566 nucleotides of DNA from a phage. The stretch lies in the sequence record EF517028.1. One strand, 5' to 3'. Positions within the stretch are counted from its first letter, which is position 1; each line of letters opens with the position of its first letter. This document shows, piece after piece, positions 2-566 of the stretch. Under the pieces are notes generated by a model. It made no database searches. It was not told the origin of the DNA and saw only the letters and a program-made list of their open reading frames with translations. A program made the position numbers and the translations under genes.

Positions 2-106
2 TGGGAAAAAGAAAACCCGCCAGTACAAGCAACTGGGTGTATAGCTTGCTTAGAGAAAGATGACCGTTATCCACACACACCTGTAACAAAGAAGCTAACG
101 ATATGA
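2..106 (+). CDS. 5'-partial ORF in frame +2 ending at TGA 104-106. Probably the N-terminal extension of the gene 1.7 long form displaced into another frame, or else a separate small upstream gene translationally coupled through ATGA.
   Basis: Frame +2 is open from the left edge for 34 codons: WEKENPPVQATGCIACLEKDDRYPHTPVTKKLTI*. Its stop overlaps ATG 103 (ATGA at 103-106). It contains a CxxC pair and an in-phase copy of the 12-nt repeat encoding LEKD, which is also present in the kinase body. An open frame of this length is only weakly significant on its own. Confidence 0.4.
   Translation, partial: WEKENPPVQATGCIACLEKDDRYPHTPVTKKLTI
49..60 (+). repeat. Copy 1 of a 12-nt exact direct repeat, CTTAGAGAAAGA
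   Basis: Identical 12-mer at 49-60 and 495-506. Copy 1 is read in frame +2 as (L)EKD within ACLEKDD. Confidence 0.8.
72..80 (+). repeat. Short dinucleotide tract, (CA)4 plus C
   Basis: CACACACAC at 72-80 read directly. It lies between the frame +1 stop (61-63) and ATG 103, which is the interval where the frame break must occur. Confidence 0.8.
89..94 (+). promoter_or_regulatory. Weak Shine-Dalgarno-like element (AAGAAG) for initiation at ATG 103
   Basis: AAGAAG matches AAGGAG at 5 of 6 positions and sits 8 nt upstream of ATG 103. Confidence 0.35.
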
Positions 107-566
107 CCGAACGTGAACAAGAGATGATTATTAAGTTGATAGACAATAATGAAGGTCGCCCAGATGATTTGAATGGCTGCGGAATTCTCTGCTCCAATGT
201 TCCTTGCCACCTCTGCCTCGCAAATAACGATCAAAAGATAACCTTAGGTGAAATCCGAGCGATGGACCCACGTAAATCACATCTGAATAAACCTGAGGTA
301 ACTCCTACAAATGATCAACCTTCCACTGAGACAATCGAAGGTGTCACTAAGTCTTCCCACTATATGCTGTTTGACGACATTGAGGCTATCGAAGTGATTG
401 CTCGTTCAATGACCGTTGAGCAGTTCAAGGGATACTGCTTCGGTAACATCTTAAAGTACAGACTACGTGCTGGTAAGAAGTCAGAGTTAGCGTACTTAGA
501 GAAAGACCTAGCGAAAGCAGACTTCTATAAAGAATTCTTTGAGAAACATAAGGATAAATGTTATGC
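103..566 (+). CDS. 1.7: Nucleotide (dGMP/dTMP) kinase, T7 gp1.7-like, 3'-partial. Starts at ATG 103 (equivalent to the internal start giving the short form in T7); predicted stop just beyond the window, about 568-570.
   Basis: Frame +1 is open from ATG 103 to the window end (154 complete codons) with no stop. Translation: MTEREQEMIIKLIDNNEGRPDDLNGCGILCSNVPCHLCLANNDQKITLGEIRAMDPRKSHLNKPEVTPTNDQPSTETIEGVTKSSHYMLFDDIEAIEVIARSMTVEQFKGYCFGNILKYRLRAGKKSELAYLEKDLAKADFYKEFFEKHKDKCY. The C-terminal part carries what I recall as the DUF3310 / T7 gp1.7 pattern (HY..IE.I..., G.CFGN..KY.LR.G.K, DL.KA..Y). In-frame TGA at 61-63 sets the upstream limit, and a weak SD-like AAGAAG lies at 89-94. The family assignment is from memory, not a search. 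Confidence 0.85.
   Translation, partial: MTEREQEMIIKLIDNNEGRPDDLNGCGILCSNVPCHLCLANNDQKITLGEIRAMDPRKSHLNKPEVTPTNDQPSTETIEGVTKSSHYMLFDDIEAIEVIARSMTVEQFKGYCFGNILKYRLRAGKKSELAYLEKDLAKADFYKEFFEKHKDKCY
495..506 (+). repeat. Copy 2 of a 12-nt exact direct repeat, CTTAGAGAAAGA
   Basis: Identical 12-mer at 49-60 and 495-506. Copy 2 is read in frame +1 as (L)EKD within AYLEKDL. Confidence 0.8.
549..553 (+). promoter_or_regulatory. Shine-Dalgarno (AAGGA) for a downstream gene starting at ATG 563
   Basis: AAGGA at 549-553 lies 9 nt upstream of ATG 563-565 (frame +2), inside the 3' end of the kinase ORF. This is the overlapping-gene arrangement typical of T7-like early regions. Confidence 0.45.
563..566 (+). 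CDS. Probable start of a small downstream gene overlapping the 3' end of gene 1.7 (position analogous to T7 gene 1.8); only 4 nt are in the window.
   Basis: ATG at 563-565 is preceded by a well-spaced AAGGA. The frame (+2) differs from the kinase frame, so the two genes would overlap by a few nt. It cannot be assessed further from 4 nt. Confidence 0.3.

What the first reader, a model, noticed from the sequence alone, without database searches (positions are those of the whole stretch)
49..506. 12-nt exact direct repeat encoding LEKD in two different frames
CTTAGAGAAAGA occurs at 49-60 and 495-506. By my rough estimate an exact 12-mer pair is expected about 0.01 times by chance in 566 bp. Each copy is in codon phase with its local ORF: ACLEKDD in frame +2 upstream and AYLEKDL in frame +1 in the kinase. 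This is independent evidence that frame +2 upstream is real coding sequence. It also suggests an internal duplication or recurring helical motif within gp1.7, and it is a potential substrate for recombinational deletion of the intervening 446 bp.
Basis: seen in the sequence. Interest (0 to 1): 0.45.

Follow-up and report, generated by a model that had tools for sequence, protein, structure and literature searches.

The report
Chance repeat in T7 gene 1.7
The 12-base repeat is real, but it is just two places where phage T7's nucleotide-kinase gene spells Leu-Glu-Lys-Asp with the same codons. The copies sit in different reading frames only because this copy of the gene carries a 2-base insertion, so the finding is ordinary.

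Summary
The window is gene 1.7 of a T7 derivative, 97.3% identical to T7. Both copies are already in reference T7, 444 nt apart in one frame of a single 196-codon ORF (L25EKD28, L173EKD176).

They fall in two frames here only because a CA was inserted in a (CA)3 tract (window 72-79). This splits the gene into a dead N-terminal stub (stop 104-106) and the known 17-kDa short form (ATG 103-105).

The two LEKD sites belong to unrelated modules: an accessory CxxC..DDRYPHxC module and the last helix of the DUF3310 kinase domain. Profile comparison aligns only 7 columns (probability 0.3%). Distant versions of the N module read SFDD or AFDD instead. Internal duplication is therefore not supported.

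About 1.3 such local 12-mer pairs are expected per T7 genome. T7 codon-pair bias (TTA-GAG, GAG-AAR) makes a match likelier. A third in-phase copy sits in T7 gene 5.5.

Deletion between the copies is mechanistically plausible, since T7 deletes between 7-10 bp repeats. No such variant was found.

Side finding: 12 of 13 substitutions versus T7 are G:C>A:T, some at invariant residues.

The parts
49..60 (+). Copy 1 of CTTAGAGAAAGA. It reads xxC TTA GAG AAA GAt, i.e. (C)LEKD, equivalent to T7 gp1.7 residues 24-28. It directly follows the CxxC of the N-terminal Cys/His module.
495..506 (+). Copy 2 of CTTAGAGAAAGA. It reads xxC TTA GAG AAA GAc, i.e. (Y)LEKD, equivalent to T7 gp1.7 residues 172-176. 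It lies inside the DUF3310 domain, at the start of the last predicted helix.
42..60 (+). Extended copy 1, TAGCTTGCTTAGAGAAAGA. It matches 488-506 (TAGCGTACTTAGAGAAAGA) at 17 of 19 positions.
72..79 (+). (CA)4 tract. T7 has (CA)3 here (CCACACACC). The extra CA shifts the reading frame from +2 to +1, and this is why the two repeat copies lie in different frames.
2..106 (+). Remnant of the 5' part of gene 1.7 in frame +2. It matches T7 codons 9-33, then gives 9 out-of-frame codons (PVTKKLTI) and a TGA stop at 104-106. The last Cys of CxxC..HxC is lost (HTC becomes HTP).
103..566 (+). ORF for the short (17-kDa) form of gp1.7 in frame +1, starting at the ATG equivalent to T7 Met42. It overlaps the upstream stop as ATGA and runs off the window end, two codons before the T7 stop.
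88..96 (+). Internal ribosome-binding site of the short form. T7 has AAAGGAGCT and the window has AAAGAAGCT (G>A at 92), so the Shine-Dalgarno match is weakened.
   Evidence: sequence read directly
343..531 (+). DUF3310 (PF11753) domain of the kinase, residues 81-143 of the short form.
563..565 (+). Start codon of gene 1.8, overlapping the end of gene 1.7 as in T7.

Best explanation
The repeat is an incidental coincidence with no function of its own. The window is gene 1.7 (nucleotide kinase) of a T7 derivative. T7 itself carries both copies, 148 codons apart in the same frame of one 196-codon gene. Each copy encodes Leu-Glu-Lys-Asp in a different, unrelated protein module.

Copy 1 follows the CxxC of a small accessory N-terminal module (CxxC-x4-DDRYPHxC). 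That module is present in roughly half of the relatives and absent, moved or duplicated in the others. Copy 2 opens the last helix of the conserved DUF3310 kinase domain.

Each site is held by selection on its own module. The shared codons follow from T7's strong codon-pair habits (TTA or CTT before GAG; GAG before Lys) plus chance.

The copies are in different frames in this window only because a CA unit was added to a (CA)3 tract between copy 1 and Met42. That frameshift kills the long 22-kDa form. It leaves the ORF of the known 17-kDa form, whose ATG overlaps the new upstream stop (ATGA).

Shown here: the homology, the frameshift, the module architecture, the lack of profile similarity, and the chance rates. 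Inferred: that the codon identity is coincidental, and that the short form is still made.
For: Identity of the window: it is 97.3% identical to T7 8190-8753, covering gene 1.7 and the start of gene 1.8.

Repeat in T7: T7 has the same two 12-mers at 8238 and 8682. They are 444 nt apart and in frame.

Frameshift: the only indel against T7 is CA in the CA tract. None of about 107 matching phage records has it. In all 25 relatives with both motifs the sites share a frame.

Short form: the 155-aa product from Met42 is a named NCBI protein, 'nucleotide kinase gp1.7 17-kDa' (ADE21720.1). 65 of the 120 closest cluster representatives lack the N module. T7 lab lineages lost the long form independently, by -1 in an A5 run and by a 100-nt deletion.

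Unrelated modules: hhalign of N against C gives 7 columns, probability 0.3%. The N site reads LEKD, LEND, LESD or IEND in T7/T3-like phages but SFDD or AFDD in Klebsiella-phage versions, where the nucleotide match to the C site falls to 7-9 of 19.

C site: it is conserved in its own right, with LEKD or MEKD in 113 of 120 proteins.

Chance rates: P = 0.014 per window. 1.33 local 12-mer pairs are expected per T7 genome and 5 unexplained pairs are observed. 18 of 51 T7 proteins contain an internal repeated tetrapeptide.

Codon-pair bias: TTA-GAG is the second commonest Leu-Glu pair, and GAG is used in 38 of 42 Glu-Lys pairs.

No RNA or regulatory signal: fold z-score is -0.9, there is no Rfam hit, and there are no promoter or terminator signals above background.
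Against: The extended 17/19 match is the only local pair of that quality in T7 that is not a known promoter, RBS or tandem array. Codon-permuted genomes give one in only about 18% of trials.

T7 holds a third exact, in-phase copy in gene 5.5 (A-I-LEKD-M). LEKD occurs only three times in the T7 proteome, each time as A-x-LEKD with TTA GAG AAA. Coding 12-mer triples average 0.15 per codon-permuted genome, and T7 has two.

The minor Leu codon TTA (15% of T7 Leu codons) is almost fixed at the C site across distant relatives, at 65 of 67. Together these leave room for short-patch copying or for a nucleotide-level constraint.
Confidence: 0.72

Rival explanations
1. Short-patch templated copying. In a T7/T3-like ancestor, a stretch of about 19 nt (A-x-LEKD) was copied between the C-terminal helix of gp1.7, the N module and perhaps gene 5.5, by template switching or micro gene conversion during T7's highly recombinogenic replication. 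On this reading the similarity is homology at the nucleotide level, not chance.
For: The match is 17/19, not just 12/12. The two sites match at 13-17 of 19 in every T7/T3-like relative that has the LExD form. There are three exact in-phase copies in T7, all A-x-LEKD with identical codons. The codon-permutation null rarely gives such triples. The N module is plainly mobile and rearranging: it is duplicated in P0116 and sits at variable distances from the C site.
Against: Genome-wide, one 17/19 coding pair is expected in about 18% of codon-permuted genomes. That null ignores codon-pair bias, which raises the chance of identical LEK codons from 0.05 to roughly 0.13 (my estimate from the counts). 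Flanks beyond 19 nt show no similarity. At protein level the match is not significant. No mechanism-specific scar was seen.
Confidence: 0.15
2. The 12-mer is a nucleotide-level functional element, such as a protein-binding or RNA signal, repeated in early and middle genes, and the LEKD coding is secondary.
For: There is near-total codon invariance at the C site across 77 distinct relatives: TTA 65/67, GAG 76/76, GAC 76/77. T7 has 5 matches with at most 1 mismatch, against 0.34 expected.
Against: Other patches of the same domain (aa 151-159) are equally invariant at codon level. The third base of the Lys codon varies freely, AAA 46 and AAG 30. Relatives of gene 5.5 use TTG or ATC at that position. 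No structure or Rfam signal was found. No known T7 promoter, RNase III site or origin lies at these positions (my knowledge of the T7 map). Many relatives lack copy 1 altogether.
Confidence: 0.05
3. One reading: an internal duplication, or a structurally equivalent repeated helix, within gp1.7.
For: A-x-LEKD is shared at both sites. The C site is helical in the model, and a short helix is drawn at 22-25.
Against: The profile comparison aligns only 7 columns, probability 0.3%. The N site lies in a Cys/His knuckle context and the C site in an all-helical domain. The N module is optional and is not LEKD in divergent forms. The N-module model is unreliable, with pLDDT below 50.
Confidence: 0.04
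4. On the 'two frames' aspect only: the CA insertion is a sequencing or assembly error, and the real phage has both copies in one frame, as in T7.
For: Dinucleotide tracts are error-prone. The insertion is unique among all matching phage records. The source sequence could not be found in any collection.
Against: The same gene also carries a G>A that weakens the internal Shine-Dalgarno, plus substitutions at invariant or near-invariant residues (P125S, L186F, P80L). This fits real decay of a dispensable gene. Independent T7 lineages have really lost the long form. Gene 1.7 is non-essential (PMC9712115).
Confidence: 0.3

Closest known systems
Bacteriophage T7 gene 1.7 / gp1.7 nucleotide kinase (NUCK_BPT7; AAP33921.1), including its 17-kDa internal-start form (ADE21720.1)
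   Same: 97.3% nucleotide identity across the whole window. The same gene order, with the gene 1.8 start overlapping the 3' end. The same DUF3310 domain. The same two CTTAGAGAAAGA copies encoding L25EKD28 and L173EKD176.
   Different: A CA insertion frameshifts the long form. The internal Shine-Dalgarno changes from GGAG to GAAG. There are 7 amino-acid changes, including P125S at a position invariant in 120/120 representatives and 77/77 viral loci.
Natural short gp1.7 homologues that start at the Met42-equivalent (e.g. phage K1F gp1.7, 155 aa; P0056, P0065)
   Same: The window's intact ORF (ATG 103 onward) has exactly this architecture: a Cys-rich middle region plus DUF3310, without the N module.
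   Different: Those phages simply lack the N-module DNA. The window retains it as a frameshifted stub that still carries copy 1.
Short direct repeats as deletion end-points in T7 (Studier et al. 1979 and Kong & Masker 1994, as cited in PMC5630979; Table 2 of PMC8923235)
   Same: A perfect 12-bp direct repeat flanks 434 bp of non-essential coding DNA. Documented T7 deletions used 7-10 bp homologies across 769-1489 bp.
   Different: No deletion at this pair has been seen in any database searched. The one natural-looking deletion found in this region (T7_1t1, 100 nt) has no flanking repeat.

Membership tests
T7 gp1.7 nucleotide kinase / DUF3310 (PF11753) | Significant match to the DUF3310 profile | tested here: met
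   E = 1.9e-22, 79.5 bits against a cut-off of 24, residues 81-143 of the window's short-form ORF; phrog_2585 'nucleotide kinase' for the T7 protein.
T7 gp1.7 nucleotide kinase / DUF3310 (PF11753) | Orthologous position: the same DNA and the same neighbours as T7 gene 1.7 | tested here: met
   97.3% identity to T7 8190-8753. The gene 1.8 ATG is at window 563-565. Upstream neighbours lie outside the window.
T7 gp1.7 nucleotide kinase / DUF3310 (PF11753) | Intact full-length (196-codon) reading frame | tested here: not met
   the CA insertion at 72-79 shifts the frame, and the upstream frame stops at 104-106.
T7 gp1.7 nucleotide kinase / DUF3310 (PF11753) | Intact short-form ORF from the Met42 equivalent (the 17-kDa product) | tested here: met
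   the frame is open from ATG 103 to the window end; the T7 155-aa product is on record as 'gp1.7 17-kDa'.
T7 gp1.7 nucleotide kinase / DUF3310 (PF11753) | Family-invariant residues retained | tested here: not met
   P125 (120/120) is Ser in the window, and the near-invariant L186 and P80 are Phe and Leu. All other invariant positions are kept.
T7 gp1.7 nucleotide kinase / DUF3310 (PF11753) | dTMP/dGMP kinase activity | not testable with these tools
   Needs enzymology. Activity is reported for T7 gp1.7 (cited in PMC11897194 and PMC7693777).
Internal protein repeat / domain duplication | Profile-level similarity of the two segments extending beyond the shared motif | tested here: not met
   hhalign gives 7 aligned columns, probability 0.33%, E 0.18.
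Internal protein repeat / domain duplication | Both motif copies conserved together across homologues | tested here: not met
   the C site is near-universal. The N module is absent in 65 of 120 representatives, and it reads SFDD or AFDD in divergent modules.
Internal protein repeat / domain duplication | Equivalent structural positions of the two segments | tested here: inconclusive
   the C site lies in helix 170-190 (pLDDT about 67-71). The N module has pLDDT below 50.
Direct-repeat deletion substrate in T7 | Exact direct repeat of at least 7 bp flanking dispensable DNA | tested here: met
   (12 bp exact, 446 nt start to start). Gene 1.7 is non-essential (PMC9712115). Precedent homologies are 7-10 bp (PMC8923235, Table 2).
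Direct-repeat deletion substrate in T7 | Deletion variants with the predicted junction exist | tested here: not met
   (IMG/VR, junction DNA: none). (phage records: every listed hit matched as two pieces 444 nt apart; only the top 30 of 106 records were listed, but a full single-piece match would rank first). (four predicted junction proteins are absent from a collection of about 15 billion proteins).

The most novel reading that the evidence does not exclude
The A-x-LEKD-coding 12-19-mer occurs three times in T7 (twice in gene 1.7, once in gene 5.5), always in phase and with identical codons. On the most novel reading, this reflects short-patch templated copying between unrelated genes during T7 replication, or a nucleotide-level signal, rather than coincidence. 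That would be a small-scale mechanism for seeding identical peptide motifs into different phage proteins.
Probability: 0.1. Interest if true: 0.4.

Novelty: already known. Interest (0 to 1): 0.12.

Why it matters
It matters little. The gene, its two protein products and both repeat copies are already in the reference T7 sequence, and the repeat needs no special explanation.

The practical lessons are three. First, a 1% per-window chance figure becomes about one expected case per phage genome. Second, 'same peptide in two frames' should prompt a search for a frameshift before any structural story. Third, this copy of gene 1.7 looks like a decaying or mutagenised allele that retains only the short-form ORF. 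That could interest people studying gp1.7 as a trigger of the Avs5 defence system, or studying mutational spectra in T7.

Tried and rejected
- **Source of the window.** Exact-pattern scans for the CA-insertion context and for a window-specific 33-mer found nothing in IMG/VR, JGI metagenomes or GTDB genomes. A megablast against E. coli genomes also found nothing. An exact protein look-up of the window's two ORFs, with guessed termini, found nothing.
- **Deletion junction.** It was absent from IMG/VR, from phage records and from the protein collection.
- **RNA explanations.** The hairpin whose arms flank copy 2 (476-491 / 511-526) folds no better than shuffles, z = -0.9. There was no Rfam hit above noise and no promoter or terminator signal above background.
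- **Solved structures.** None exist for the family by sequence.
- **Structure prediction.** The AlphaFold model (mean pLDDT 59.6) was too weak in the N module to compare the two LEKD positions. I did not run fold searches on it.
- **Primary gp1.7 papers.** Tran et al. 2008, 2010 and 2012 and Kong & Masker 1994 are not held in the library. My recollection that gp1.7 purifies as forms of about 22.2 and 17.8 kDa rests on memory. It is supported by the NCBI product name and by computed masses of 22,184 and 17,711 Da. The latter is about 70 Da off the remembered value.
- **Recoding.** I considered programmed frameshifting or transcriptional slippage at the CA tract as a way to restore the long form. 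I rejected it because there is no slippery heptamer or homopolymer run (sequence inspection only).

Full report
**Observation**

The 12-mer CTTAGAGAAAGA is exact at 49-60 and 495-506. It is the longest exact direct repeat in the window. Without gaps it extends to 19 nt at 17/19 identity, 42-60 versus 488-506.

A direct repeat of 12 nt or more appeared in 1.36% of 5000 dinucleotide-preserving shuffles of the window. It appeared in 1.48% of codon permutations of T7 gene 1.7.

Frame +2 reads WEKENPPVQATGCIACLEKDDRYPHTPVTKKLTI*. Frame +1 reads ...MTEREQEM...SELAYLEKDLAKADFYKEFFEKHKDKCY. Both copies are in phase as xxC TTA GAG AAA GAx.

**What the window is**

Megablast places the whole window on T7 8190-8753 at 97.3% identity. 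That span is gene 1.7 plus the first bases of gene 1.8.

The pairwise alignment shows 13 substitutions and one indel. The indel is an extra CA in a CA tract: T7 has CCACACACC and the window has CCACACACACC, at window 71-81.

T7 gene 1.7 is a single 196-codon ORF. It contains the same two 12-mers, 444 nt (148 codons) apart, encoding L25EKD28 and L173EKD176 in one frame.

So 'LEKD in two different frames' is a consequence of the frameshift. It is not a property of the gene. In all 25 IMG/VR relatives that carry both motifs, the two sites share a frame, and their separations (219-546 nt) are all multiples of three. No phage record among about 107 matches has the CA insertion.

**Consequences of the frameshift**

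The upstream frame now ends at TGA 104-106, overlapping ATG 103-105 as ATGA. That ATG is Met42 of T7 gp1.7.

The 155-aa product from Met42 is on record at NCBI as 'nucleotide kinase gp1.7 17-kDa [Escherichia phage T7]' (ADE21720.1). Computed masses are 22,184 Da for the full protein and 17,711 Da from Met42.

65 of the 120 closest cluster representatives lack the N-terminal module. Many of them are 155-158 aa proteins beginning at or near the Met42 equivalent, K1F gp1.7 among them.

T7 lab lineages have lost the long form independently. Logan assemblies L016 and L019 have a -1 in the A5 run. 'Mutant T7 clone T7_1t1' has a 100-nt deletion.

The window therefore keeps the short-form kinase ORF and carries the N-terminal part as a dead stub. 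In that stub HTC becomes HTP, losing the last Cys of the motif. The internal Shine-Dalgarno is weakened, GGAG to GAAG at position 92. Whether the short form is still made is inferred, not shown.

**Are the two LEKD segments related?**

Copy 2 lies in DUF3310 (PF11753), at T7 residues 122-184. It falls at the start of predicted helix 170-190.

Copy 1 follows the CxxC of a small module, C-x-A-C-LEKD-DRYPHTC. That module is present in 55 of 120 representatives and duplicated in P0116. It sits at varying distances from the kinase domain.

Profile-profile comparison of N-module and C-domain alignments aligns only the 7 motif columns, with probability 0.33% and E 0.18.

In T7/T3-like phages the N site reads LEKD, LEND, LESD or IEND. 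In Klebsiella-phage versions of the module it reads SFDD or AFDD, and the nucleotide match to the C site drops to 7-9 of 19. The invariant part of the module is C..C....DDRYPHxC, not LEKD.

The AlphaFold model (mean pLDDT 59.6) has the N module below pLDDT 50. Structural equivalence therefore could not be tested. No solved structure of the family exists by sequence. Internal duplication is not supported.

**Conservation at nucleotide level**

The N copy [CT]TTAGAGAA[AGTC]GA[TC] is kept in every relative that has the LExD form.

The C copy is nearly invariant at codon level across 77 distinct relatives down to about 45% protein identity. Counts are TTA 65/67, GAG 76/76, GAC 76/77, and Lys AAA 46 / AAG 30. 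Most close relatives have AAG. The exact 12-mer pair is therefore restricted to T7 and a few others, such as L006/L025.

However, each is conserved within its own module. Another patch of the domain (aa 151-159) is just as invariant at codon level.

**Is it more than chance?**

Across the whole T7 genome there are 12 local exact pairs of 12 nt or more within 554 nt. Seven are terminal-repeat arrays or promoters. Five, including this one, are unexplained coding 12-mers. Shuffled genomes give 1.33.

The 17/19 extension is rarer. Of 10 such local pairs in T7, this is the only one that is not a known regulatory or tandem repeat. Codon-permuted genomes produce an extra coding pair in 11 of 60 trials.

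Unexpectedly, T7 has a third exact, in-phase copy at 16923-16934 in gene 5.5 (VQAILEKDMLHL). LEKD occurs only these three times in the T7 proteome, always as A-x-LEKD. Relatives of gp5.5 keep [LI]EKD with TTA, TTG or ATC.

Coding 12-mer triples average 0.15 per codon-permuted genome. T7 has two, the other being TGACCCTGAGAAG.

Against reading much into this: 18 of 51 T7 proteins contain an internal repeated tetrapeptide. T7 codon-pair use is also strongly skewed. TTA-GAG is the second commonest Leu-Glu pair, and GAG precedes Lys in 38 of 42 cases. By my estimate, this raises the chance of identical LEK codons from 0.05 to roughly 0.13, and my permutation nulls ignore it.

My judgement is coincidence plus independent constraint at about 0.7. 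Short-patch copying is at about 0.15. A nucleotide-level signal is at about 0.05. No RNA structure, Rfam family, promoter or terminator explains the motif.

**Deletion substrate**

Deletion between the copies would remove 446 nt, including the CA insertion. It would leave an in-frame fusion...GCIACLEKDLAKADFYKEFFEKHKDKCY. In T7 the product would be a 48-codon ORF.

There is direct precedent. T7 lines fixed deletions of 769-1489 bp between 7-10 bp homologies (PMC8923235, Table 2). Direct repeats have long been used to isolate T7 deletion mutants (Studier 1979 and Kong & Masker 1994, as cited in PMC5630979). Gene 1.7 is non-essential (PMC9712115).

No junction was found in IMG/VR, in phage records or as a predicted protein among about 15 billion sequences. 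The idea is plausible but has not been observed.

**Comparison with what is known**

Everything here belongs to T7 gene 1.7. gp1.7 is a non-essential dTMP/dGMP kinase (PMC7693777, PMC9712115). It was recently reported as an activator of the EfAvs5 defence protein (PMC11897194).

The window meets the family tests for the profile match, the orthologous position and the short-form ORF. It fails on the intact long ORF and on one invariant residue, P125S.

**Side observation**

Twelve of the 13 substitutions relative to T7 are G:C>A:T (8 C>T, 4 G>A), and one is T>A. At 7 sites all or nearly all outgroups agree with T7, so the change is derived in the window lineage, and all 7 are G:C>A:T.

Singleton changes in nine natural relatives are only 28% G:C>A:T, 15 of 54. 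T7 itself has none, and the window has 5 of 5.

Several changes hit otherwise invariant or near-invariant residues: P125S, L186F and P80L. One hits the internal Shine-Dalgarno.

This looks like a T7 lineage exposed to a G:C>A:T mutagen or to heat, both of which are discussed for T7 and T4 in PMC8923235, or else like sequence damage. With only 566 nt and no identifiable source, I could not take it further.

**Verdict**

The feature is ordinary and lies within an already known gene. Interest is low.

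Noticed in passing
window 71-106: A CA insertion in a (CA)3 tract frameshifts gene 1.7. The new upstream stop TGA (104-106) overlaps the Met42 ATG (103-105) as ATGA, an arrangement that could allow termination-reinitiation for the 17-kDa short form. No other phage record has this insertion.
   Followed up: yes
window 92, 129, 183, 201, 218, 277, 310, 315, 318, 325, 352, 363, 535: 12 of the 13 substitutions versus T7 are G:C>A:T transitions. Natural relatives show about 28% of this class among singleton changes. 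The changes include P125S (invariant in 120/120), L186F, P80L, and loss of the internal Shine-Dalgarno G. This suggests a mutagenised, heat-damaged or decaying T7 allele.
   Followed up: partly
L015 (T7 AY264774) 16923-16934, gene 5.5: A third exact copy of CTTAGAGAAAGA, again in phase (A-I-LEKD-M, gp5.5 residues 23-29). LEKD occurs only three times in the T7 proteome, always as A-x-LEKD with TTA GAG AAA. Relatives of gp5.5 keep [LI]EKD with TTA, TTG or ATC.
   Followed up: partly
L015 15478, 23663, 32095 (T7 genes 5, 10A, 16): TGACCCTGAGAAG is the only other non-regulatory 12-mer or longer present three times on the T7 + strand. Two such triples occurred in only 2 of 300 codon-permuted genomes.
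   Followed up: no
window 430-456 and 496-513 (gp1.7 aa 151-159 and 173-178): Patches of near-total codon-level invariance across 77 distinct relatives. Examples are GGG 70/77, TGC 74/75, AAC 73/76, ATC 69/71, TTA 65/67, GAG 76/76 and GAC 76/77. This is stronger than in the rest of the DUF3310 domain, and the cause is unknown.
   Followed up: partly
P0116; L031-L100: The N-terminal CxxC-x4-DDRYPHxC module behaves as a mobile accessory unit. It is absent in about half of the homologues and duplicated in P0116. It is fused directly to DUF3310 in some (distance 219 nt). In Klebsiella-phage types it sits 291 nt upstream of the C site and reads SFDD or AFDD in place of LEKD. It has no Pfam family of its own.
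   Followed up: partly
L016, L019 (Logan ERR13249017/52); L017, L018, L101 (OL964748/9): Independent T7 lineages have lost the long gp1.7 form, by a -1 frameshift in the GGGAAAAAG run and by a 100-nt deletion with no flanking direct repeat. The 155-aa ORF is carried on at least 64 contigs.
   Followed up: partly
window 324-340 and 378-394: A second direct repeat, 17 nt at 82% identity (CACTGAGACAATCGAAG / CATTGAGGCTATCGAAG), 54 nt apart and in frame. It encodes ..ETIEG.. and ..EAIEV.. on either side of the start of DUF3310.
   Followed up: no
L047 and L100: Some natural relatives show a stop codon immediately before the Met of an MTE... start (RS*MTEREIQ in L047, RS*MTEVAV in L100). A separate upstream ORF abutting the kinase start therefore also occurs in nature.
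   Followed up: no
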